DNA of 64,000 nucleotides, from the NCBI GenBank assembly GCA_024654025.1, contig JANLIR010000002.1:168959-232958 (forward strand). Reading direction: 5' to 3'. Under the pieces are notes generated by a model. The model was not told where the DNA came from, searched no databases, and saw only the letters and a list, made by a program, of their open reading frames with translations. Positions 7,565 through 31,760 of the stretch are shown piece by piece. The position numbers and the translations under genes were made by a program. Positions within the stretch are counted from its first letter, which is position 1, and each line of letters starts with the position of its first letter. The DNA is from Candidatus Wolfebacteria bacterium. GTDB lineage: Bacteria; Patescibacteriota; Minisyncoccia; UBA6257; UBA9933.

Positions 7565-7649
7565 GTCCTCGTGGCGGAAATGGAATACGCGCAGCGCTTA
7601 GGACGCTGTCCCGCAAGGGTTGTGGGTTCGACTCCCACCGAGGACACCA
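7565..7649 (+). tRNA. tRNA-Leu(UAG), CCA encoded
   Basis: Acceptor GTCCTCG/CGAGGAC. Anticodon arm CAGCG CTTAGGA CGCTG. Long variable arm (CCC gcaa GGG). T arm GTGGG TTCGACT CCCAC. Ends ACCA. Confidence 0.9.
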
Positions 7650-7650
7650 A

Positions 7651-7686
7651 ACTATAAATCCCTTCGAGACCGAAGGGATTTATAGT
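7651..7686 (+). terminator. perfect hairpin directly after tRNA-Leu
   Basis: ACTATAAATCCCTTCG aga CGAAGGGATTTATAGT. Confidence 0.6.
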
Positions 7687-7809
7687 TTATATATCACAAG
7701 GGAGGAGAAGGGTATTTAAAAAAGCAAACTGCTTTGCTTTTTTAAAACCCCGGCTCTGGAGGAGTAATTTTCCATGTTTATTTATGAACGAAAAATTACG
7801 GGGGAAGAG

Positions 7810-7831
7810 GACTCCCACCGAGGACACAAAA
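7810..7831 (+). repeat. direct repeat of the tRNA-Leu 3' end (att-like)
   Basis: GACTCCCACCGAGGACAC at 7810-7827 is identical to 7630-7647 of the tRNA. It abuts the 3' end of the recombinase gene. Confidence 0.8.
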
Positions 7832-8800
7832 TTATCCCCTTCTTCTTCCGTGAAATGTTTTGTGTATTTCTTTGAGTTCTTTATTTGTTAAATGCGTGTA
7901 AATTTGGGTTGTGGAAATATTGCTATGGCCTAAAAGTTCTTGCACAGACCTTAAATCCGCTCCTCCGATTAATAAATCAGTGGCAAAGCTATGCCGGAGC
8001 AAATGCGGGTGGATTTTTTGCGGTATCCCCGCTTTTCGGCCGTAAAAATCTATCAAGCGCTGAATTGCGCGAGGAATAATTCTCCCGATAACTTTCGGAT
8101 TTGCTTGCCCTGAGCTCATCGAGTCTGAGACTCTCAGAGTCGAATGACTTGTCGAACGGGTTGCTTTAGTTAAGCTTACAAACAGCGCTTCTTCGGCATC
8201 GGTTCGTTTTCCTAAATAATTTTTTATAGCTTTCTTGGCGGATTCGGATAAAAACACCACTCTTATTTTCCCGCCCTTGCCCCGCACGGAAATTTCTCCC
8301 CTATTCAAATCAAAATACCGGCTCAAAGAACATAATTCTGAAACGCGAAGCCCGGTTGAAAACAAAACTTCCAAAATCGCTTTGTCGCGAAGTCCTTTTA
8401 AATCGTTTGTTTTGGGCGCTGCCATAAGCCGTTCCAAATCCGAGTATTCCATTATATTGATTTGCCGGTTTGGAATTCTAGGAAGCTCGATTTTTTCCGA
8501 AGCTAAAACCCTGTAGTCGTTTTTCGCCAAAAATTTCAAAAAGTTTCTAAGCGCTATTATGTAGTAGCTTTGGGTTGTGCGTTTAAAGTTTTCTCCATCT
8601 CTGGGATTATGAAGCCGCGCCAGATAGATCCGAAAATCTCTTACGTTGTCAGCGGTGATATCGCCCTCGGATTTTATTTTGGCGAAATCAAAAAACTTCG
8701 TTAAATAGTGCTCATAATTTTCCCGCGTGTCTTTAGTCCTGCCTTTTTCAATCTCAAGATAATCAAGATAGTTTTTGAGGAGTTTGTTTATGTCAGCCAT
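7832..8800 (-). CDS. tyrosine recombinase (XerC/XerD-like integrase)
   Basis: Catalytic-domain motifs LFSTGLRVSEL, HPHLLRHSFATDLL, LLGHSNISTTQIYTH. Start placed at MADINK (8800). Carries a roughly 25-aa internal insertion. Confidence 0.85.
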   Translation of the reverse strand: MADINKLLKNYLDYLEIEKGRTKDTRENYEHYLTKFFDFAKIKSEGDITADNVRDFRIYLARLHNPRDGENFKRTTQSYYIIALRNFLKFLAKNDYRVLASEKIELPRIPNRQINIMEYSDLERLMAAPKTNDLKGLRDKAILEVLFSTGLRVSELCSLSRYFDLNRGEISVRGKGGKIRVVFLSESAKKAIKNYLGKRTDAEEALFVSLTKATRSTSHSTLRVSDSMSSGQANPKVIGRIIPRAIQRLIDFYGRKAGIPQKIHPHLLRHSFATDLLIGGADLRSVQELLGHSNISTTQIYTHLTNKELKEIHKTFHGRRRG

Positions 8801-8806
8801 AGCTTC

Positions 8807-8841
8807 GCAACCTGTAACTTGTAACAATTAACTTATAACAA
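8807..8841. repeat. 5 x 7-nt degenerate heptad array
   Basis: GCAACCT GTAACTT GTAACAA TTAACTT ATAACAA. Confidence 0.65.
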
Positions 8842-15718: not shown

Positions 15719-15723
15719 AAAAA

Positions 15724-15742
15724 GGTCCCTTATGCAGGGACC
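15724..15742. terminator. hairpin between convergent cassette genes
   Basis: GGTCCC ttatgca GGGACC. Confidence 0.55.
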
Positions 15743-16017
15743 ACCTCAACTCCTTTCTTTTCCGGGGGGTTTCTCCGAAAATATTCTTTGGCCTTGTCGC
15801 AGGCCGCGGCAAAAGCGGCCGGCGCGACAACGTAGTTGTGAGTGTCACGCGTGTGCGCGCCCGGCTTAAATCTCTCATTAAGACCGCCGGCTGTTACGAT
15901 ACGACGACCGAAGCGTGTCTTGTGACGGAAAGGTATAACAACCCCCTCTGTCCAGACCTGAACGATGTTTGGGTTGCCAAGCTTCTTTCCTGTTTCGAAA
16001 ACCCAGACATTCAGCAA
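15730..16017 (-). CDS. hypothetical protein (GC-rich cassette), TTG start
   Basis: gGAAGGAGGcgcaacTTG. 95 aa. No family recognised. Confidence 0.45.
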   Translation of the reverse strand: MLNVWVFETGKKLGNPNIVQVWTEGVVIPFRHKTRFGRRIVTAGGLNERFKPGAHTRDTHNYVVAPAAFAAACDKAKEYFRRNPPEKKGVEVVPA

Positions 16018-16031
16018 GTTGCGCCTCCTTC

Positions 16032-16214
16032 CTAATAGTGAAAGGTCAGGATCGACTTCATGAAAGCGGGATACCGAGAAGTCAGGATCACCATCATGAA
16101 GGCGAACACGGTCATGATCAGCATCCCTCTGAATATCGGCTGGAAAAACCTGCGAGTGAAGTGGTCATTCCGCTTCCTTTTGCTGTTGTGCTTCTGGTTC
16201 GTATAAATAAACAT
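16032..16214 (-). CDS. hypothetical small membrane protein (GC-rich cassette)
   Basis: GGGGGGTGAaaATG at 16214, one TM helix (GMLIMTVFAFMMVILT), 60 aa. Confidence 0.4.
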   Translation of the reverse strand: MFIYTNQKHNSKRKRNDHFTRRFFQPIFRGMLIMTVFAFMMVILTSRYPAFMKSILTFHY

Positions 16215-16303
16215 TTTCACCCCCCACAAAGATTTTTTACGATCTGGCTAAATAGTAGCATATTTTTTAAAGTTTGTAAAGAGGGGTAAAATAGCCCGTC
16301 TAT

Positions 16304-16767: not shown

Positions 16768-17199
16768 ATGCAAACAAAAAAAATTACAGCAGAATATATT
16801 AGGGGCTTTATTGAGGGCGTGGGAACTTTTACTTTCACAACCTCGTCACGGGGTTTCAATAAAAAGGTTAAAATACCAACTTTTCAATTAAGAATGAATA
16901 TTCGAGATAAACGGTTAATTGAATTGATTAAAGGACATCTCGGACTTAAAAATAGGGTTTATATGTATCATTATCCGGGAACTGATGGCGCAAAACGAGG
17001 GCCACAAGCGATGTTAATAGTCCGAGAAATAGGTAATCTGAAAAATATAATCATCCCTTTCTTTTACGATAAGCTGGTTGGGTATAAAGCAGCCCAATTT
17101 AATAAGTGGCTTGAAAGAATAGGTAAAGACTCGGAAGTGCCAGAGGGATTTAAGATTCTATACCGTCTTCATAAATCCGGTTGGTTTTCAAAGAAATAG
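16768..17199 (+). CDS. free-standing LAGLIDADG homing endonuclease (single-motif type)
   Basis: AEYIRGFIEGVGTFTF is LAGLIDADG-like. 143 aa. Confidence 0.7.
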   Translation: MQTKKITAEYIRGFIEGVGTFTFTTSSRGFNKKVKIPTFQLRMNIRDKRLIELIKGHLGLKNRVYMYHYPGTDGAKRGPQAMLIVREIGNLKNIIIPFFYDKLVGYKAAQFNKWLERIGKDSEVPEGFKILYRLHKSGWFSKK

Positions 17200-17227
17200 C
17201 ATTAAAATGGTTTAGTAGGTAAAAATA

Positions 17228-17255
17228 CTAATTCGGCAATGGTCATTGCCGAATT
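17228..17255. repeat. 12-bp-stem palindrome
   Basis: AATTCGGCAATG gt CATTGCCGAATT. A related hairpin lies at 17450-17485 (AGTTCGGCAATCC ... GGATTGCCGAACT). Confidence 0.7.
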
Positions 17256-17483
17256 AAAATAGGGGTTTTGCCGAATTAAAATGTTGGGAATGTTTTACAA
17301 CCAACACTTTGAATCAAATTTTAAGGGTCTAAAGTGTCAAAAATGTTTATCAAGTTTTGATAAACAATCTTTTACGACAGATTAGCTTAAAATTGGGCTA
17401 AAAAGTGTTTATCAAGTTTTGGCAAACATTTTCGGAAAGTTTAGTAAATAGTTCGGCAATCCGTTATTTGATGGATTGCCGAA

Positions 17484-18137
17484 CTAATAGGACGCGAAAA
17501 TACCCTTTGCCCACCCCCGGATTTTTAAAGATAGCCCAACATTACAGATGTAGATTTCAAAAGTTCCATAAGGAAGGCCCTCTTTTTTGGATTTTGTGGC
17601 TCTTTTTACTGAGAGTTTGAAAAACTGCTTTAAAGGGATGCCGGAAATTTCCGACCAGTATTTTTCTGTTCCCCGATGATCAAGGTGGGGATAGATATAA
17701 ATATGCCCCCGGAATTTCTGTTCCGGAACCTCACAAACATCCCTAAAAAAGGCCATCATTAACCTAACTATATTCGGGTCGCTGTTTGAGAACCGGACAA
17801 GGCCTTTTTGGGTTTTCCCACACCCTGCCCAATACAAAACCGAGCCAATTAGCCAAAGCTCACTTCTAGTTATTTTCTTTACCTGCTTTTGCGCTTGGTC
17901 GATAAGGTTTTCTCGTGTAGCTGTTTCCCGAGCCAGTCTGGTTGCGCGTCTTTTTTCCACTACCGAAAGCTTTACGGCGCGCTTTGATAGCGTTTTCTCC
18001 TGGTCTTTAGTTAGCGCGATGTTGCGGACCCATAAGCTCGCGCTACTTTTTGAAACGTTTAAGTTTTTCGCGATCTCGTTCAGAGAGTAACCATAAGCTC
18101 GGAGTTCTCGCGCTTTTTGTTTTTCAGCCTGCTTCAT
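17484..18137 (-). CDS. HTH-domain protein with degenerate LAGLIDADG-like C-terminal domain
   Basis: N-terminal YSLNEIAKNLNVSKSSASLWVRNI (HTH). C-terminal LWLIGSVLYWAGCGKTQKGLVRFSNSDPNIVRLMMAFF resembles homing-endonuclease cores. Confidence 0.5.
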   Translation of the reverse strand: MKQAEKQKARELRAYGYSLNEIAKNLNVSKSSASLWVRNIALTKDQEKTLSKRAVKLSVVEKRRATRLARETATRENLIDQAQKQVKKITRSELWLIGSVLYWAGCGKTQKGLVRFSNSDPNIVRLMMAFFRDVCEVPEQKFRGHIYIYPHLDHRGTEKYWSEISGIPLKQFFKLSVKRATKSKKEGLPYGTFEIYICNVGLSLKIRGWAKGIFASY

Positions 18138-18218
18138 AATCGAACTGATGAAGATATTTACTATGCTGAATATAGCATACAGGTTCGATTATTACAATAA
18201 AAAGAAGTTTGATTTCTG

Positions 18219-18330
18219 TGCGCGTTGAGGGGATTGAACCCCCGACCTGTCGCCTAAGGCGACCGTTCTAACCAACTGCTCCGACGCTTCGGTCGGAGCC
18301 CCGACTTCGTATTAGCGAACGTCGGAGAGC
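18219..18330 (-). pseudogene. tRNA-like remnant or aberrant tRNA
   Basis: The minus strand has a normal D-loop/T arm/acceptor 3' strand (..AGTTGGTTAGAAC G GTCGC cttag GCGAC AGGTC GGGGG TTCAATC CCCTC AACGCGC A). The anticodon loop is only 5 nt and there is no matching 5' acceptor strand. It is preceded by interlocking hairpins GCTCTCCGAC/GTCGGGGC and GCTCCGAC/GTCGGAGC. Confidence 0.3.
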
Positions 18331-18339
18331 TAAAAATTG

Positions 18340-18568
18340 TGGACGCGCCCCGACTCGAACGGGGGACCTTCTCGGTGTCCCGCACAAAGTGGGTGCTATA
18401 GGATTCGAACCTATGACCTTCGCAGTGTAAATGCGACGCTCTAACCAACTGAGCTAAGCACCCACTTTAAGCGGGATTGCGATTTGTTTTTAAAAATTTT
18501 ATATCAAATTAAATTTTTAGACAAATCGGGAATAAACGAGACGCTCTAACCAACTGAGCTACGCGTCC
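18340..18568 (-). tRNA. interrupted tRNA-Val (outer gene); exons 18535-18568 and 18340-18379, 155-nt insert
   Basis: 5' half GGACGCG TA GCTC AGTTGGTTA GAGC G TCTCG TT. 3' half GACAC CGAGA AGGTC CCCCG TTCGAGT CGGGG CGCGTCC A. Joined, they form a perfect 74-nt cloverleaf. Confidence 0.6.
18390..18463 (-). tRNA. tRNA-Val(UAC), nested inside the interrupted tRNA-Val
   Basis: GGGTGCT TA GCTC AGTTGGTTA GAGC G TCGCA TTTACAC TGCGA AGGTC ATAGG TTCGAAT CCTAT AGCACCC A. No encoded CCA. Confidence 0.9.
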
Positions 18569-18569
18569 A

Positions 18570-19184
18570 CTATTTGATTTTATCGTCTCCATTGCTATTC
18601 TCTTTGCTTAACGCATTAAAGACTTTTTTCAGAGCGTATTCAAAAAATATAACTCCTATTATTAAAAGCGTCAAAAACAGGGCGGCTCGTTTTAAATCGT
18701 GTTTAAGAATATCGGTTTGGTGCGCAAAAAGGTATCCAAGAGAAATTAATAAAGTTGTCCAGACAGCTGCGGCGGTTGCGCTGTATTTCAAAAGTTTTTT
18801 AAGCGAAATTTTTGAATAGCCGGCGCAGACTAAAACTACTCTGTTTAAATTCCACGCGAACTTGGAAATAAAAATCCAAAAACCGCTTCTTTTTTCCAGT
18901 TTCCGCAAAATCGGCGCGGTGTTTTCGGTTGTAAAAAATAAAAATTTTTTCCGTCCGCTTTCAACCAATCTTTTACCCAAGCTCCAATAAAAAAGATCGC
19001 ACAAGATAACCCCGATAAAAGCCGTTATTAGCGAAGGGAAAAAACCGACAGCTCCGCTTCTTACCAATACTCCGGTCAGTACCAGAATAATTTCTCCCTC
19101 TATGAACATTCCTATAAATATGGCCAAGTACGCGAGTATTCGGTGAACTTCGGAGAGATTTAAAAACAAGGATTCAATATGCAT
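18570..19184 (-). CDS. DedA/SNARE-associated family membrane protein
   Basis: FIEGEIILVLTGVLV...ILCDLFYWSLGKRL and polytopic topology. Confidence 0.8.
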   Translation of the reverse strand: MHIESLFLNLSEVHRILAYLAIFIGMFIEGEIILVLTGVLVRSGAVGFFPSLITAFIGVILCDLFYWSLGKRLVESGRKKFLFFTTENTAPILRKLEKRSGFWIFISKFAWNLNRVVLVCAGYSKISLKKLLKYSATAAAVWTTLLISLGYLFAHQTDILKHDLKRAALFLTLLIIGVIFFEYALKKVFNALSKENSNGDDKIK

Positions 19185-19206
19185 CTCCTTATTATAGCAA
19201 AAAAAG

Positions 19207-19278
19207 TGCGAGTGGCAGGGATCGAACCTGCGACGGCCGTCTTATAAGGGCGGTGCTCTACCACTGAGCTACACTCGC
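19207..19278 (-). tRNA. tRNA-Ile(UAU)
   Basis: GCGAGTG TA GCTC AGTGGTA GAGC A CCGCC CTTATAA GACGG CCGTC GCAGG TTCGATC CCTGC CACTCGC A. One C-A mismatch in the anticodon stem. Confidence 0.75.
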
Positions 19279-19394
19279 AAATTATTTCATAACCAGCTGC
19301 CTGTCCGCCGCAGTCCGCCTATTGGCGGACGAAGGAGGAAGCTACACGCGCAAAGATAGCAATAAATATAGCAAAAACTTTTGTATAGTCAAAG

Positions 19395-20333
19395 CTACTT
19401 CAAAGTCGTAATCGGCCTGCTTTGGACAATATAAAATTTATTTTTTTCAAAAGCCCATTCAATGTCCTGCGGTTTTTTATAATGATTTTCTATATTTTGG
19501 CATATTTGTGCCAACTGTAAAATATATTTGTCGGCCAGTTTTTGTTTTTCTTGCTTGGCTTTCGGCACGATAGTTTCTTTAACTCCGCTTCCGTCTCGCA
19601 CAACCATCATTTCCTGCTTTGAAATGTTTGAGTCCAAAATATTTCTGTTTGTTTTGTGAATTACGTAAGTGTCAGGAGTGATTTTGCCCCCGACAATCGC
19701 TTCGCCCAATCCATACCCGGCCTCAATTACCATCTGGTCATAATCTTCGGTTACTGGGTGTACCGTAAAACAGATTCCGGAAATTTCCGATTGAATCATT
19801 TTCTGCACCACAACTGCCACTAAAACTTTTTGCTTATGAAGTTTTTTTTCAAACCGATAAAAAATCGCGCGTGGAGTAAATAGCGATGCCCAGCATTTTT
19901 TAACATTTTCCAAAAGATTTCCCTTTGAAGTATTTAAATAACTTTCCAATTCTCCGGCCCAGGAAGCGGTAGAAGAGTCCTCGGCTGTGGCTGAACTACG
20001 TACTGCCACATATTTTGTTTTCAGCTTGGCGAATTCAGTTAAAATTTCTTTGGCGATATCTTTGGGAAATTTAGCGTTTAAAATTAAGCTCCTGATTTCT
20101 TCAGAGACCTTTTCAATGGAGTTTATATCTTTGACTTTTACTTTGTGGAGCTGGGCTTCTATCTCAACGTCAATATCGGTTTCTTCCAAAAACCTATCAA
20201 AAGCCCCAGCCAAAACCACAAATCCGGGCGGCACCGGAATTCCGGATTTTATCATTTCGCCAAGCGAAGCTCCCTTGCCTCCGGCAATAGCAGCGTCTTT
20301 TTTTGAAAGTTTGTTAATTTTTTTAATAAACAT
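19395..20333 (-). CDS. PEP synthase/PPDK N-terminal ATP-grasp (nucleotide-binding) domain protein
   Basis: AGGKGASLGEM, VAVRSSATAEDS, QDIEWAFEKNKFYIVQSRPIT. Ends where full-length enzymes continue. Confidence 0.85.
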   Translation of the reverse strand: MFIKKINKLSKKDAAIAGGKGASLGEMIKSGIPVPPGFVVLAGAFDRFLEETDIDVEIEAQLHKVKVKDINSIEKVSEEIRSLILNAKFPKDIAKEILTEFAKLKTKYVAVRSSATAEDSSTASWAGELESYLNTSKGNLLENVKKCWASLFTPRAIFYRFEKKLHKQKVLVAVVVQKMIQSEISGICFTVHPVTEDYDQMVIEAGYGLGEAIVGGKITPDTYVIHKTNRNILDSNISKQEMMVVRDGSGVKETIVPKAKQEKQKLADKYILQLAQICQNIENHYKKPQDIEWAFEKNKFYIVQSRPITTLK

Positions 20334-20366
20334 AATCTACATTTTAACAGCCCAAACCGCTTATAT

Positions 20367-21965
20367 CTACCTTCCCAAATGCAAAACTTTTCTATGATGA
20401 GGATTTGATGTTTTTTGGGCTTGAACCGGAATTATCTTAAAATTATTTTTTGATTTTTTTATCACCGTCACCTTCCCGGAATTTGCGTCAACCTCAACCA
20501 GGTCGCCGTCTTTTAATGATTTTGTAGCTGTCTTTGCTCCGATAATGCATGGTGTTTTAAGTTCTCGAGCCACAATCGCCGCATGGCACAATAAACCTCC
20601 CTCATCGGTGACAACGGCGGAAGCTTTTTTTATTAAAGGCACAAAATCCGGCGTTGTCATAGAAGTAACTAAAACGTCTCCCTCTTCAAATTTTCCTTTT
20701 TCTGACCTTGGGTCAAAAATAATTTTAGCTTTTCCTTTGACCCTTCCTTTATATGCAGTAAACCCTTTTAGTATTTGATTTTTTGAGGTTTCTATCTTCT
20801 CGTGCCAGTCTTCTTTTTTGACGCCGGTCCATACTTTAATCGCGTTTCCGACTTGTTTTATGGTGGCTCCTTTTAATATTCTTTCTCTGACTATTTTTTT
20901 TGGATTATTTTTTCCCAAAAGACCCTCAATAATTTCTTTTTTGGAAAGAAGCCAAAAATCGTCCGCTTCTTCCAATTTCAATCTGTCTATAATTTCAAGG
21001 TAAAAATCCCAGCAGTGCACGAAGTAGTTATAATAATTTTCTTCATCGCAGTTGCGGTAGCCCATCATTTTTCTGAGCCAGAAAATATGTTTTGTTATTT
21101 TGGAATGTTTTTTTAGTTCGGATAAAATTTTCCCCACTATTTTTCGGCTCTTTTCTTCTTCATTATTTATTTTTCTTATTTCGGCTTCGGCATCGGTTTT
21201 TAAGTGTTTCAAAAACCGTTTGTCAATGTCCCCAAGCTTGTAATAATTGCCGTCGTGTTTAAAACTGCATCCGCCGAATTTATACCAATGGCCGAAAATA
21301 ATTTTTTTAATCTTTTTGTCCCGCCAGTTTTTTGAAGTCCTGTATATTTTTTGTATCTTAATTAATTTTTTCAAAAAATTCAGCCGCTCGGTCTTAACCA
21401 TTGAATTTATGCCCACAGATGAAAGAGTTTGCAGAATTTTTCCAACATCTTTTATTTTCAGCTCAGAAGAAAATTTGTCCAATTCTTTTTTGACTAGGCG
21501 GGGAAGAAGATTAACCAAGTCGTAGACGACGTAATAGCCGGCCAGCGCCCGGCGGTGATAATAACCGTGCTTTTCCAATATTTTTACCAGATCGCCGTTT
21601 GTCCTGCTTTTGTAAAAACCGGCACCTTTGGTAAATATTTGATCGGTTATTTTTTTAAAATCCGCGTAAGATTTGAAAAAATATTTTTCCAGCCTGCTGA
21701 AATAATTTTTATCTTTCAGTAAATCGCCGGCGACTCCTTCCAGAAATTCGTCTTCAATTTTACTGTCCCAATAAATAAAAAATTCCCTGGGATTGCCCGA
21801 TCTGGTAGAAACGTATTTAACCCAATTGCCGTAATTTCTTTTATAAGGATCTCCTTTCCAATTTAAAATAGTTACTTTTAAAGTTTCTTCTTCAGAAAGA
21901 ATATCCAGTACTCTGACCATTTTTTCAATGTTATCCGGATTGGAAAAGGGTTTATACCTGCTCAT
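20367..21965 (-). CDS. RPH/PEP-synthase-like protein: unknown helical N-terminal region plus C-terminal phosphohistidine swivel domain
   Basis: C-terminal VLVTSMTTPDFVPLIKKASAVVTDEGGLLCHAAIVARELKTPCIIG (PEP-utilizer mobile domain). DDFWLLSKKEI resembles the DIF(Y/F)L..EEL segment of RPH-like enzymes. Confidence 0.75.
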   Translation of the reverse strand: MSRYKPFSNPDNIEKMVRVLDILSEEETLKVTILNWKGDPYKRNYGNWVKYVSTRSGNPREFFIYWDSKIEDEFLEGVAGDLLKDKNYFSRLEKYFFKSYADFKKITDQIFTKGAGFYKSRTNGDLVKILEKHGYYHRRALAGYYVVYDLVNLLPRLVKKELDKFSSELKIKDVGKILQTLSSVGINSMVKTERLNFLKKLIKIQKIYRTSKNWRDKKIKKIIFGHWYKFGGCSFKHDGNYYKLGDIDKRFLKHLKTDAEAEIRKINNEEEKSRKIVGKILSELKKHSKITKHIFWLRKMMGYRNCDEENYYNYFVHCWDFYLEIIDRLKLEEADDFWLLSKKEIIEGLLGKNNPKKIVRERILKGATIKQVGNAIKVWTGVKKEDWHEKIETSKNQILKGFTAYKGRVKGKAKIIFDPRSEKGKFEEGDVLVTSMTTPDFVPLIKKASAVVTDEGGLLCHAAIVARELKTPCIIGAKTATKSLKDGDLVEVDANSGKVTVIKKSKNNFKIIPVQAQKTSNPHHRKVLHLGR

Positions 21966-22285
21966 TTCAAAATTTTTACGATTCCTTTGTTTAAGTCCAT
22001 TTCAACCCTGTCGCCGTCTTTTAAAATTTTCGTGGCGTTTTTCGTACCCACAATACAAGGAATGCCGAATTCCCGAGCTATAATTGCAGGATGAGAGGTG
22101 ATTCCTCCTCTATCTGTGATTATGGCAGCCGCTTTTATGATAATTGCCGCGAAAGAAGGATTGGTTAATTCCGCAACTAAAATTTCCCCTTCTTTAAAAT
22201 TTTTAAAATCCTTGGGATTTTTAATGATTTTTACTCTGCCCTTGGCTTTCCCTTTGTTTGCAACGATCCCTTTTATTTCTTTCAT
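21962..22285 (-). CDS. stand-alone PEP-utilizer mobile (phosphohistidine swivel) domain protein
   Basis: ILVAELTNPSFAAIIIKAAAIITDRGGITSHPAIIAREFGIPCIVG. 107 aa. ATGA overlaps at both ends. Confidence 0.8.
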   Translation of the reverse strand: MKEIKGIVANKGKAKGRVKIIKNPKDFKNFKEGEILVAELTNPSFAAIIIKAAAIITDRGGITSHPAIIAREFGIPCIVGTKNATKILKDGDRVEMDLNKGIVKILK

Positions 22286-31579: not shown

Positions 31580-31760
31580 GCCGAAGTAGCTCAGTGGCAG
31601 AGCAACTGTTTTGCGTCAGCCCCGTTAGATATGCCGGGATAGCTCAGTGGTAGAGCAACTGTTTTGTAAACAGTAGGTCGTCGGTTCGAATCCGACTCTC
31701 GGCTCTCTCGGTGTATCTAACGGGGTAAATAGGTCGCGAGTTCGAATCTCGCCTTCGGCT
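31580..31760 (+). tRNA. Thr-like tRNA shell interrupted by a complete tRNA-Thr (outer gene; possibly a pseudogene)
   Basis: 5' part GCCGAAG TA GCTC AGTGGCA GAGC A ACTGT TTTG... 3' part ...TAAAT AGGTC GCGAG TTCGAAT CTCGC CTTCGGC T. The acceptor pairs perfectly. The 3' anticodon-stem strand is missing. Confidence 0.45.
31633..31704 (+). tRNA. tRNA-Thr(UGU), nested
   Basis: GCCGGGA TA GCTC AGTGGTA GAGC A ACTGT TTTGTAA ACAGT AGGTC GTCGG TTCGAAT CCGAC TCTCGGC T. Confidence 0.9.

What the first reader, a model, noticed from the sequence alone, without database searches (positions are those of the whole stretch)
18340..18568. A complete tRNA-Val(UAC) nested inside the anticodon loop of a second, otherwise perfect tRNA-Val gene
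Minus strand 18568->18535 reads GGACGCG TA GCTC AGTTGGTTA GAGC G TCTCG TT. That is the acceptor 5' strand, D arm, 5' anticodon stem and U32-U33. Minus strand 18379->18340 reads GACAC CGAGA AGGTC CCCCG TTCGAGT CGGGG CGCGTCC A.

Joined, the two pieces give a flawless 74-nt cloverleaf with loop UUGACAC (Val-GAC). If the junction is slid 1-2 nt the loop becomes UUUACAC (Val-UAC), because the insert begins TA. Neither half has a partner of its own nearby.

The intervening 155 nt (18380-18534) hold an independent, complete tRNA-Val(UAC) at 18390-18463. The flanks of that inner tRNA pair with each other (TCCCGC..AAAGT with ACTTT..GCGGGA). There is also an AT-rich hairpin (CGATTTGT...ACAAATCG).

The insert is far too short and unstructured to be a group I intron, which is the only established bacterial tRNA intron type. 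RNase P/Z excision of the inner tRNA would leave two outer halves. That outcome would resemble archaeal split tRNAs. Two homing-endonuclease-like genes lie immediately upstream (16768-18137).
Basis: seen in the sequence. Interest (0 to 1): 0.85.

Follow-up and report, generated by a model that had tools for sequence, protein, structure and literature searches.

The report
tRNA gene nested inside its predecessor
A valine tRNA gene in a tiny uncultured bacterium (Candidatus Wolfebacteria) has been cut in two by a 155-base mobile insert that carries its own replacement valine tRNA; it is one of several in-place tRNA gene replacements in this lineage, and most likely not a new kind of spliced or split tRNA.

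Summary
On the minus strand, 18568-18533 and 18377-18340 are the two halves of a flawless tRNA, separated by 155 nt that hold a complete tRNA-Val(UAC) at 18390-18463.

The outer gene is Val(UAC), not Val(GAC). A related strain (L011) carries it uninterrupted, 73/74 identical, with loop TTTACAC. The insert sits at position 35/36, give or take one base.

The same insert (98% identical) sits at the same position in a different host tRNA-Val in another strain (L007). It has no group I core and no bulge-helix-bulge motif.

Same-anticodon nesting recurs: Thr(UGU) in this window (31580-31760) and in L020, Thr(GGU) in L016, Val in L002. The inner tRNA is each time clamped by 12-15 bp inverted repeats. 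Outer copies elsewhere are visibly broken, and every strain keeps one intact copy.

The tRNA pieces are 93-99% identical between strains whose backbone is 70-76% identical, so they move horizontally.

Best reading: a just-superseded relic gene around a working replacement cassette. How the cassette inserts is unknown. I found no published description.

The parts
18533..18568 (-). 5' part (positions 1-35) of outer tRNA-Val(UAC), called allele B here: GGACGCG TA GCTC AGTTGGTTA GAGC G TCTCG TTTA
   Evidence: Sequence. Identical to the 5' part of the uninterrupted gene at L011:898-933.
18378..18532 (-). 155-nt insert (INS), TTCCCG...GCGGGA, at anticodon position 35/36; the boundary can be slid by one A
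   Evidence: Alignment A1 against the uninterrupted B gene. The same insert, 98% identical, sits in a different host tRNA in L007. No Rfam family matches it other than the inner tRNA.
18480..18528 (-). AT-rich hairpin inside INS, containing a weak sigma-70-like site (TTGTCT-17-TAAAAT, 18524..18496)
   Evidence: the repeat finder I2/I3. Fold z = -4.8. Promoter scan scores 9/12; this is a consensus match only, not evidence of function.
18464..18476 (-). Left arm of the inverted-repeat clamp, TCCCGCTTAAAGT; it pairs with 18378-18389 plus the discriminator base
   Evidence: the repeat finder I1. Paired in the minimum-free-energy fold.
18390..18463 (-). Inner, intact tRNA-Val(UAC), called allele I here; presumably the working gene
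   Evidence: ARAGORN. Rfam tRNA, 77.5 bits. The same allele is the only intact Val(UAC) gene at this locus in L007 and L013.
18378..18389 (-). Right arm of the clamp, CTTTGTGCGGGA
   Evidence: Conserved together with the junction in L007, L011/L027 and L013/L031.
18340..18377 (-). 3' part (positions 36-73) of outer tRNA-Val(UAC) allele B: CAC CGAGA AGGTC CCCCG TTCGAGT CGGGG CGCGTCC A
18219..18332 (-). Relic of a third tRNA-Val, called allele A here, the positional orthologue of the plain gene in L001. Its 5' acceptor strand is missing. It carries a 49-nt double-hairpin insert in the D loop (18279-18327). A GTCGCC-TTA-GGCGAC hairpin stands where the anticodon arm should be. The T arm and 3' acceptor strand are intact.
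   Evidence: Rfam partial tRNA hit at 22.2 bits. Sequence. The complete allele A is seen in L007. Synteny with L001. Fold of the insert has z = -4.2.
19290..19351 (-). Relic 5' fragment of an older tRNA-Ile(UAU) (GCGCGTG TA GCT..C AGCTGGTTA), with a 40-nt hairpin insert in the D loop (19300-19339). It lies just upstream of the intact, different tRNA-Ile(UAU) at 19206-19278.
   Evidence: The older allele is intact and uninterrupted in L008 and L013. The newer allele stands alone in L001 and L032.
31580..31760 (+). A second nested pair in the window.
- Outer tRNA-Thr(UGU): 5' part 31580-31613 and 3' part 31726-31760; its anticodon-stem 3' strand lacks CAG.
- It encloses a 112-nt insert (31614-31725) at position 35/36.
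- The insert holds the intact tRNA-Thr(UGU) at 31633-31705.
- That inner tRNA is clamped by the inverted repeats CCCCGTTAGATA (31620-31631) and TATCTAACGGGG (31714-31725).
   Evidence: L020 has the same outer shell and the same junctions, but a different inner allele and a different clamp.
16768..17199 (+). Free-standing LAGLIDADG endonuclease gene. It keeps its position beside the YraN-family gene, near the tRNA-Val locus, in all relatives examined.
   Evidence: Pfam LAGLIDADG_1, E = 8.3e-9. Synteny.
17484..18137 (-). 217-aa protein directly downstream of the tRNA-Val cluster: an N-terminal helix-turn-helix domain plus a C-terminal domain with the LAGLIDADG fold

Best explanation
**What it is.** The 229-nt feature is a tRNA-Val(UAC) gene (allele B) that was recently cut at anticodon position 35/36 by a 155-bp insertion cassette.

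- **The cassette.** It carries an AT-rich hairpin and a complete, divergent tRNA-Val(UAC) gene (allele I, 74% identical to B). Inverted repeats around allele I extend its acceptor stem by about 13 bp.
- **Roles of the two genes.** The inner gene is the working Val(UAC) gene. The outer halves are a just-superseded relic with no expected product of their own.
- **The wider process.** This is one instance of a recurrent process in this Wolfebacteria lineage.
  - A new allele with the same anticodon lands inside the resident single-copy tRNA gene, or replaces part of it.
  - Only insertions that bring a cognate replacement survive.
  - The superseded copy then picks up hairpin inserts in its D and T loops, suffers deletions, and is eventually lost.
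- **Mobility.** The pieces are exchanged horizontally between strains.

**What is shown.**
- The exact insertion.
- The same cassette in two different host genes.
- Recurrence at other tRNA loci.
- Decay of outer copies.
- Horizontal exchange.

**What is inferred.**
- That B makes no mature tRNA.
- That the cassette spread from allele A to allele B by homing-like gene conversion through the shared D arm and anticodon arm, possibly stimulated by the neighbouring LAGLIDADG enzymes.
- That in the transcript the clamp insulates the inner tRNA fold from its homologous surroundings and gives the RNA-processing enzymes a handle.

**What is unknown.** How such a cassette first forms and inserts.
For: 1. 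**Exact insertion.** Uninterrupted B exists in L011/L027. The window differs from it only by one base and by the 155 nt between TTTA and CAC.
2. **Same cassette, two hosts.** The insert is 98% identical and at the same position in host allele A in L007. Allele A differs from B in its acceptor stem and T stem.
3. **Outer copies are not maintained.**
   - Allele A carrying the insert has lost its 5' half in L013.
   - It is fused and truncated in L011.
   - It lacks its acceptor strand and anticodon loop in the window.
   - The outer Thr lacks 3 nt of its anticodon stem in both the window and L020, and has lost its 3' half in L016.
   - The outer Thr(GGU) in L016 has no anticodon arm.
4. **One intact copy each.** Every locus examined keeps exactly one intact gene of that anticodon.
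5. **Recurrence.** Same-anticodon nesting occurs at Val, Thr(UGU) and Thr(GGU), and an old Ile gene is overwritten by a new Ile gene. Perfect 12-15 bp inverted repeats flank four nested tRNAs, and an interrupted 11-bp clamp flanks the Val insert. The other tRNAs lack such perfect repeats close to their ends.
6. **Horizontal exchange.** Between the window and L011, the backbone is 70-76% identical and the fourfold-degenerate sites of the adjacent DedA-family membrane-protein gene (18570-19184) are 38% identical. B, the spacer plus hairpin insert, and the dead 3' part of allele I with its junction are 93-99% identical.
7. **No sign of splicing.** There is no group I core, and the junction lies in a multiloop rather than a bulge-helix-bulge. 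Bona fide tRNA introns rarely coexist with an intron-less copy of the same anticodon (PMC13011429).
8. **Means for DNA exchange in the window.** ComEC, RecA, PolX, a tyrosine recombinase and two LAGLIDADG-type genes are present.
Against: - **B shows no decay.** It is 73/74 identical to the intact allele and all its stems are perfect, so its non-function is argued by analogy and not shown.
- **Outer shells look conserved.** They are better conserved than neighbouring synonymous sites. For example the outer Thr shell is 97% identical between the window and L020, against 74-86% at fourfold sites. This could mean constraint rather than recent transfer.
- **No insertion enzyme or mechanism identified.**
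  - The junctions have no target-site duplication and no att-type repeat.
  - The LAGLIDADG genes are also present in strains with a plain, uninterrupted tRNA-Val that has the same anticodon arm.
- **No RNA data.**
- **Small sample.** Only a handful of related strains could be retrieved.
Confidence: 0.68

Rival explanations
1. **Functional nested intron.** The whole unit is transcribed. The inner tRNA, or the whole clamped insert, is cut out by tRNA- or dsRNA-processing enzymes (RNase P/Z or RNase III). The outer halves are held together by their own stems and ligated. One locus would then yield two Val(UAC) tRNAs. This would be a new protein-dependent bacterial tRNA intron.
For: - The outer halves are flawless and fold as a cloverleaf around the insert.
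- The insert's ends pair with each other, which brings the exon ends together.
- Inserts of related form sit only in the D, anticodon and T loops, as archaeal introns do.
- Outer shells are unexpectedly well conserved.
- Patescibacteria are known to carry many tRNA introns, often at position 35/36 (PMC13011429).
Against: - The junction has neither a bulge-helix-bulge motif nor a group I core.
- No RtcB, EndA or RNA ligase is found among the 57 window ORFs, although this is only 64 kb of the genome.
- An intact copy of the same anticodon is always present, which a true intron would not require.
- Sister outer copies are truncated or lack stems.
- RNase P/Z cuts around the inner tRNA would leave 71-nt and 12-nt tails on the halves, not ligatable loop ends.
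Confidence: 0.07
2. **Classical site-specific integration.** A tyrosine integrase inserted a small element into the anticodon loop, a known integrase target. What is seen now is the deleted-down remnant that kept only its tRNA.
For: - From established knowledge, not tested here: the anticodon and T loops flanked by symmetric stems are the classical integrase crossover sites in tRNA genes.
- The window encodes a tyrosine recombinase (7832-8827).
- That gene lies beside tRNA-Leu(UAG), whose 3' end from T-loop position 57 onward is repeated 180 nt downstream (26 nt, 92%). This is the usual att signature.
Against: - At the Val and Thr inserts, at most 1 nt is repeated at the two junctions. There is no overlap-region duplication and no partial tRNA duplication.
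- The cassette carries a whole tRNA only 74% identical to the host gene.
- No integrase lies next to the Val locus.
- The identical 155-nt unit in two hosts argues against independent erosion of a larger element.
Confidence: 0.1
3. **Unligated split tRNA or intervening-sequence-like processing.** The insert is excised without ligation, as RNase III does with the intervening sequences in 23S rRNA. The two B halves would then stay paired and act either as a nicked tRNA or as stable tRNA halves with another role.
For: - Hairpin-closed inserts in loops of a structural RNA gene, with sporadic distribution among strains, resemble rRNA intervening sequences. This is from established knowledge and was not tested here.
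- The long clamp plus acceptor stem would form about 20 bp of dsRNA.
Against: - A break inside the anticodon (35/36) cannot decode.
- The same evidence of decay in sister outer copies applies here.
- Nothing points to a function for the halves.
Confidence: 0.04
4. **Assembly chimera.** Two strain variants of the tRNA-Val locus were joined through shared tRNA sequence during assembly.
For: - The source is a metagenome-assembled genome, and several alleles coexist in related samples.
- B and allele I share a 22-nt identical D-arm stretch.
Against: - The junctions do not fall in the shared stretch.
- The same 5' and 3' junctions recur in separately assembled samples and in different arrangements.
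- The structure is exactly nested, with the exon restored on removal of the insert.
Confidence: 0.02

Closest known systems
Group I introns in the anticodon loop of Patescibacteria tRNA genes (Nakagawa et al. 2026, PMC13011429)
   Same: Same phylum. The insert lies in the anticodon loop at or next to position 35/36, the site that paper reports as enriched in Patescibacteria. Standard tRNA finders miss the interrupted gene. With the boundary set at 34/35, the insert follows a U and ends in a G.
   Different: The insert is only 155 nt, 74 of which are a tRNA. It gives no RF00028 match even at E = 10. It coexists with an intact gene of the same anticodon, which that paper calls rare for true introns. 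Sister cases have defective exons.
Archaeal bulge-helix-bulge introns at non-canonical positions, and split or permuted tRNA genes (Thermoproteales, Nanoarchaeum; from my own knowledge, and the review PMC4090602 turned up but not read)
   Same: There are multiple inserts per tRNA gene, in the D, anticodon and T loops. The insert ends base-pair. The inserts appear to move between tRNA genes.
   Different: The organism is a bacterium: the window has tmRNA, SmpB and Mur ligases. There is no bulge-helix-bulge, because the splice points face each other at the end of a continuous helix or multiloop. No EndA or RtcB was seen in the window. The halves are contiguous rather than at separate loci.
Integrative elements that insert into tRNA genes and carry a replacement tRNA segment (integrase sublocation classes; from my own knowledge)
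   Same: The insertion is in a tRNA gene loop, and the incoming DNA restores the lost function. The tRNA-Leu(UAG) locus of this window shows the classical repeat signature next to a tyrosine recombinase.
   Different: Here the incoming DNA brings a whole, divergent tRNA rather than a duplicate of the displaced segment. There is no att repeat, no adjacent integrase, and the total size is 155 bp.
Homing-endonuclease-driven exchange of neighbouring DNA, for example the free-standing endonucleases in phage T4 tRNA gene clusters (from my own knowledge)
   Same: Free-standing LAGLIDADG-type genes sit beside the variable tRNA cluster. The tRNA alleles are mosaic and horizontally exchanged.
   Different: No cleavage site is known. 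The same endonuclease genes accompany plain, uninterrupted tRNA-Val genes in other strains.
Intervening sequences of bacterial 23S rRNA genes, and small palindromic insertion elements such as REP elements or IS200/IS605-derived hairpin elements (from my own knowledge)
   Same: The cargo-less inserts are one or two stable hairpins. They are inserted exactly, without target-site duplication, into loops of a structural RNA gene, and they vary between strains.
   Different: They are found only in tRNA genes, with none elsewhere in the 64 kb. No Y1 transposase was seen. Some carry a whole tRNA.

Membership tests
Group I intron in a bacterial tRNA | Conserved catalytic core recognisable by the covariance model (Rfam RF00028) | tested here: not met
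   No Intron_gpI match in 17900-19400 at E up to 10, nor in the whole window at E up to 5.
Group I intron in a bacterial tRNA | Intron follows a U and ends with a G | tested here: inconclusive
   True only if the boundary is set at 34/35 (TTT|A...GCGGG|ACAC). The one-base ambiguity makes this uninformative.
Group I intron in a bacterial tRNA | Enough sequence for the P1-P9 helices (about 200 nt or more) | tested here: not met
   The insert is 155 nt, of which 74 are the inner tRNA and 49 a simple AT-rich hairpin.
Archaeal-type protein-spliced intron | Bulge-helix-bulge motif (or a relaxed form) at the two splice sites | tested here: not met
   In the minimum-free-energy and centroid folds the junction is a multiloop. 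The insert ends pair with each other, and there are no 3-nt bulges 4 bp apart (sequence inspection).
Archaeal-type protein-spliced intron | Splicing endonuclease (EndA) and RtcB-type ligase encoded in the genome | tested here: inconclusive
   None among the 57 ORFs of the window. The window is only 64 kb of a 249-kb contig, and the genome is larger still.
Split tRNA (Nanoarchaeum type) | Halves encoded at separate loci, each with its own promoter and a complementary leader or trailer | tested here: not met
   The halves are 155 nt apart on one strand, with no dedicated complementary extensions beyond the insert itself.
Integrase-mediated insertion in a tRNA gene | Direct repeat of the tRNA segment (att core) at both ends of the insert | tested here: not met
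   At most 1 nt is shared at the two junctions of the Val and Thr inserts. The feature is met at the tRNA-Leu(UAG) locus: 26 nt, 92%.
Integrase-mediated insertion in a tRNA gene | Integrase gene in or beside the element | tested here: not met
   The neighbours of the Val locus are a VTT-domain (DedA-family) membrane protein, a helix-turn-helix/LAGLIDADG protein, a LAGLIDADG_1 protein and a YraN-family protein. The only tyrosine recombinase in the window is about 10 kb away.
Terminal-inverted-repeat transposon or miniature derivative | Terminal inverted repeats | tested here: met
   The termini are TCCCG...CGGGA, and the related inserts share YYCCG...CGGRR ends.
Terminal-inverted-repeat transposon or miniature derivative | Target-site duplication, and dispersed copies in the genome | tested here: not met
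   There is no duplication. The pieces occur only at tRNA loci in the window and in the fetched loci.
Superseded tRNA gene (pseudogene by insertion) | Gene interrupted, with an intact gene of the same anticodon present | tested here: met
   The inner tRNA-Val(UAC) is intact. The same holds in every related locus.
Superseded tRNA gene (pseudogene by insertion) | Sequence decay of the interrupted copy | tested here: inconclusive
   B itself shows none: it is 73/74 identical to the intact allele. Outer copies at sister loci are deleted or truncated.
Superseded tRNA gene (pseudogene by insertion) | No mature RNA made from the interrupted copy | not testable with these tools
   This needs tRNA sequencing, a northern blot or RT-PCR.
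LAGLIDADG homing endonuclease (the two neighbouring genes) | LAGLIDADG domain by profile or by fold | tested here: met
LAGLIDADG homing endonuclease (the two neighbouring genes) | Cleaves the insert-free tRNA allele | not testable with these tools
   This needs an in vitro cleavage assay.

The most novel reading that the evidence does not exclude
The hairpin-closed inserts in the D, anticodon and T loops are one previously unrecognised family of elements that target bacterial tRNA genes. Some are bare hairpins, and some carry a clamped tRNA.

On this reading they are removed at the RNA level by ordinary tRNA- or dsRNA-processing enzymes plus a ligase. Interrupted genes such as B would then still yield a working tRNA. 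That would be a protein-dependent bacterial tRNA intron that can encode another tRNA.

A less radical version is more likely, at roughly 0.3. In it, these are a new class of DNA elements that can invade essential single-copy tRNA genes because they bring a cognate replacement.
Probability: 0.07. Interest if true: 0.95.

Novelty: new variant of a known kind. Interest (0 to 1): 0.62.

Why it matters
- **tRNA gene turnover in minimal genomes.** These genomes carry one gene per tRNA. The loci examined suggest that tRNA genes are nonetheless replaced quickly, in place, by foreign alleles of the same anticodon. Alleles differ by 20-30% between strains whose proteins are 74-96% identical. That points to a strong, unidentified pressure on tRNA gene sequences, such as endonucleases, tRNA-targeting toxins or mobile DNA.
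- **Annotation.** Relic halves around an intact tRNA can be mistaken for introns or split tRNAs, and they are invisible to standard tRNA finders.
- **A possible new element type.** If the clamped cassettes and the loop-specific hairpin inserts prove to be one mobile family, they would be a new way for selfish DNA to occupy essential genes. The RNA-level reading, if true, would add a new kind of intron to bacteria.

Tried and rejected
- **Val(GAC) reading.** Rejected, because the uninterrupted allele has a UAC anticodon.
- **Group I intron.** No covariance-model hit at permissive thresholds.
- **Bulge-helix-bulge intron.** Absent from the folds.
- **ARAGORN in intron mode.** It does not report the outer gene.
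- **Phage origin of the alleles or inserts.** Four exact-pattern scans of viral contigs found nothing: inner Val, the D-loop hairpin, B, and inner Thr.
- **Metagenome scan with the inner-tRNA/clamp junction.**
  - It returned only two relevant contigs, both arrangements already seen, plus six chance hits in unrelated GC-rich genes.
  - My one look-up of exact copies of the window's own proteins (the DedA-family protein) found none on record.
- **Integron attC-like core sites in the Thr clamp (GTTAGAT/ATCTAAC).** Judged coincidental, because the other clamps lack them.
- **Att-type repeats at the Val and Thr inserts.** None found.
- **Genome-wide repeat family.** The hairpin motifs occur only at tRNA loci.
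- **Literature searches.** I searched for nested, intron-encoded or replaced tRNA genes in candidate-phyla bacteria and found no description.
- **Non-coding stretch 15719-16303.** No Rfam match.
Full report
**Source.** The window is a stretch of bacterial chromosome from an uncultured Candidatus Wolfebacteria (Patescibacteria, the candidate phyla radiation or CPR). Two of its proteins are identical to NCBI entries of a Wolfebacteria metagenome-assembled genome on a contig of 248,723 bp. The window also carries tmRNA and SmpB, Mur ligases, GyrA, RecA and ComEC.

**The observation.**
- On the minus strand, 18568-18533 reads GGACGCG TA GCTC AGTTGGTTA GAGC G TCTCG TTTA.
- 18377-18340 reads CAC CGAGA AGGTC CCCCG TTCGAGT CGGGG CGCGTCC A.
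- Joined, the two pieces are called a tRNA by ARAGORN.
- Between them lie 155 nt that contain a complete tRNA-Val(UAC) at 18390-18463 (ARAGORN; Rfam 77.5 bits).
- The whole 229 nt folds as one cloverleaf inside another: -88.8 kcal/mol, z = -6.9.
- The flanks of the inner tRNA pair with each other, and there is an AT-rich hairpin.

**Which tRNA is the outer one?**
- I fetched homologous loci through the adjacent membrane-protein gene (DedA family, 18570-19184).
- In L011, and in the independently assembled L027, the same gene is present without interruption.
- It is 73/74 identical to the joined window sequence and has the loop TTTACAC.
- The outer gene, which I call allele B, is therefore a second tRNA-Val(UAC), not Val(GAC).
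- The insert lies between A35 and C36. Because an A is repeated at the boundary, 34/35 is equally possible.

**The insert is a discrete, portable unit.**
- In L007 the DedA protein is 94.5% identical to the window's.
- There the same 155 nt, about 98% identical, sit at the same position in a different tRNA-Val(UAC), allele A.
- Allele A has acceptor stem GCGCGTT/AACGCGC and also carries a 40-nt hairpin in its D loop.
- With both inserts removed, A is again a perfect tRNA.

Other strains show further states of the same locus:
- **L013/L031:** the inner allele I followed by the right clamp arm and the 3' half of A. The 5' half of A is gone.
- **L011/L027:** intact B, followed by a dead fusion of A and I that carries two hairpin inserts.
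- **L001, L008, L010 and 24 further contigs:** one plain tRNA-Val(UAC), of yet other alleles.

In the window itself, the stretch just downstream of B (18332-18219) is the relic of A.
- Its 5' acceptor strand is missing.
- It has a 49-nt double hairpin in the D loop.
- A 6-bp hairpin stands in place of the anticodon arm.
- Its T arm and 3' acceptor strand are intact.
- By synteny with L001 it is the original resident gene of the locus.

**The phenomenon recurs.**
- **Thr(UGU) in the window (31580-31760).** An outer tRNA-Thr(UGU) encloses, again at 35/36, an insert holding the intact tRNA-Thr(UGU) at 31633-31705. The inner tRNA is flanked by perfect 12-bp inverted repeats.
  - The outer copy lacks three bases (CAG) of its anticodon stem, so it cannot form that stem.
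- **L020.** It has the same outer shell and the same junctions, but a different inner Thr(UGU) allele, a different 14-bp clamp, and a double hairpin in the outer T loop.
- **L016.**
  - The outer Thr(UGU) has a D-loop insert and has lost its 3' half.
  - The neighbouring tRNA-Thr(GGU) is intact in the window, L020 and L023. In L016 its whole anticodon arm is replaced by a 13-bp-clamped new tRNA-Thr(GGU).
- **L002.** The 5' fragment of an old tRNA is followed by a tRNA-Val(UAC) whose acceptor stem is extended to 22 bp by its flanks.
- **Ile in the window.** Upstream of the DedA gene, the 5' fragment of an older tRNA-Ile(UAU), with a 40-nt hairpin in its D loop, precedes a different, intact tRNA-Ile(UAU).
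  - The older allele is intact in L008 and L013.
  - The newer one stands alone in L001 and L032.
- **Leu(UAG).** It has a 26-nt copy of its 3' end 180 nt downstream, next to a tyrosine recombinase gene.
- **Tally.** Four of the eight tRNA genes in the window carry traces of a predecessor. A scan for orphan T arms found only these relics and chance AT-rich matches.

**Two regularities stand out.**
1. The inner tRNA always has the anticodon of the gene it interrupts, and each locus keeps exactly one intact copy.
2. Nested tRNAs are clamped by inverted repeats that differ in sequence from case to case.
   - Four of the clamps are perfect over 12-15 bp. The Val clamp in the window is 11 bp with an internal mismatch.
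   - The other tRNAs of these loci have no such perfect repeat close to their ends.

The cargo-less inserts fold into one or two stable hairpins, with z from -2.7 to -5.7.
- They sit only in loops: D loop around position 13, D loop 19/20, and T loop 56/57.
- They were seen only in superseded copies.
- Their ends share the motif YYCCG...CGGRR.
- They do not occur elsewhere in the 64 kb.
- Two types occupy the same D-loop site. They are swapped between the Ile and Val relics in the window compared with L007.

**Is the outer gene used?** Nothing I could test supports splicing.
- No group I core was found, even at E = 10.
- The junction is a multiloop, not a bulge-helix-bulge.
- No RtcB, EndA or RNA ligase is present among the 57 ORFs of the window, which is only part of the genome.
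- True tRNA introns in bacteria rarely coexist with an intron-less gene of the same anticodon (PMC13011429). Here they always do.
- Outer copies in the sister cases are deleted, truncated or stem-less, which shows they are not kept by selection.
- B itself is undamaged, so its status rests on analogy and on the insertion being recent.

**The pieces move between strains.**
- Between the window and L011, the surrounding genes are 70-76% identical in DNA.
- The fourfold-degenerate sites of the DedA gene are 38% identical, which is effectively saturated.
- By contrast, three pieces are 93-99% identical:
  - B;
  - the spacer with the D-loop hairpin;
  - the 3' part of allele I, dead in L011, with the clamp arm and the junction.
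- The tRNA-Val(UAC) alleles of these strains differ from each other by 14-30%, almost entirely through paired changes in stems.
- This is allele replacement, not slow divergence.

**Likely mechanism.**

*Shown:*
- An exact 155-bp insertion at 35/36.
- The same unit in two host genes that share the D arm and a near-identical anticodon arm.
- Horizontal exchange.

*Inferred:*
- The unit passed from A to B by homing-like gene conversion through those short shared exon sequences.
- Uptake and recombination functions are present (ComEC, RecA, PolX).
- Two LAGLIDADG-type genes sit beside the cluster. One is Pfam LAGLIDADG_1. The other is a helix-turn-helix plus LAGLIDADG-fold protein belonging to a family of more than 100 clusters, the named members from uncultured CPR bacteria. 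A weak homologue lies beside the Thr/Trp cluster of L016.
- These enzymes could supply the double-strand breaks. However, the same genes also accompany plain tRNA-Val genes, so this remains a candidate and not a finding.
- Only insertions that bring a cognate tRNA can survive in a single-copy essential gene. That would explain the matching anticodons by selection alone.
- In the transcript, the clamp would isolate the inner tRNA from homologous outer sequence and could be a cleavage site for a dsRNA-specific RNase.
- A weak promoter-like site lies in the AT-rich hairpin.

*Unexplained:*
- How a clamped cassette first forms and inserts without any duplication or att repeat.
- Why bare hairpins land only in tRNA loops.
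- Why the outer Thr shell is 97% conserved between two strains whose inner cassettes differ.

**Comparison with known systems.**
- The feature fails the tests for a group I intron, an archaeal-type intron, a Nanoarchaeum-type split tRNA, a classical integrase insertion, and a transposon with target-site duplication.
- It works most like mobile DNA that enters tRNA genes while restoring their function. Here, though, it brings a whole divergent tRNA in a clamp, and it is only 155 bp long.
- Six full-text searches found no description of nested same-anticodon tRNA genes or of such cassettes.
- I therefore rate it a new variant of a known kind.

**Limits.**
- Only about ten related strains could be retrieved.
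- The public scans were capped.
- There are no RNA data.
- The rest of the genome was not available to me.

Noticed in passing
window 31580-31760 (+): A second nested pair. An outer tRNA-Thr(UGU), with 3 nt missing from its anticodon stem, encloses at position 35/36 an intact tRNA-Thr(UGU) (31633-31705). The inner tRNA is clamped by 12-bp perfect inverted repeats. L020 has the same shell with a different inner allele.
   Followed up: yes
window 19290-19351 (-), next to tRNA-Ile(UAU) 19206-19278: The 5' fragment of an older tRNA-Ile(UAU), with a 40-nt hairpin in its D loop, sits upstream of the current tRNA-Ile(UAU). It looks like a leader. The same hairpin type sits in the D loop of tRNA-Val allele A in L007.
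   Followed up: yes
window 7565-8827: The 3' end of tRNA-Leu(UAG), from T-loop position 57 onward, is repeated 180 nt downstream (7630-7655 and 7810-7835; 26 nt, 92%). Two strong hairpins lie between the copies. A tyrosine recombinase gene (7832-8827, Pfam Phage_integrase, E = 2e-40) abuts the repeat. This is a classical att-like signature.
   Followed up: partly
L016:3770-3950 and L016:3180-3345: In a relative, tRNA-Thr(GGU) has its whole anticodon arm replaced by a 13-bp-clamped new tRNA-Thr(GGU). The outer Thr(UGU) there has a D-loop insert and no 3' half.
   Followed up: yes
L011:2150-2225: An orphan T arm plus 3' acceptor strand (ATAGG TTCAAAT CCTAT ACTGCCT A) shares 19 nt with the T arm of the dead allele I about 1 kb upstream. 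A 162-aa ORF lies between them. This could be an att-type repeat of a small integrated element.
   Followed up: no
window 18246-18262 (-): A perfect hairpin, GTCGCC-TTA-GGCGAC, stands where the anticodon arm of relic allele A should be. It may be a scar left by an earlier insert.
   Followed up: no
window 15719-16303: A stretch of about 585 nt between a DUF3006-like gene and the YraN-family gene has only short overlapping ORFs and no Rfam match. Its nature is unknown.
   Followed up: partly
window 19206-19278 and relatives: The lineage uses a tRNA-Ile with anticodon UAU, which is uncommon in bacteria. tRNA alleles of one anticodon differ by 14-30% between strains whose neighbouring proteins are 74-96% identical.
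   Followed up: partly
window 19395-22285 (-): The PEP-utilising enzyme appears to be split into separate ORFs: a PPDK_N domain (19395-20333) and two ORFs each carrying a PEP-utilizers mobile domain (20367-21965 and 21962-22285).
   Followed up: no
L007:1150-1175: In L007 the stop codon of the DedA gene lies inside the 5' acceptor and D-arm region of tRNA-Val allele A (GCGCGTTTAG). In the window and L011, B and a new DedA C-terminus replace that stretch.
   Followed up: no
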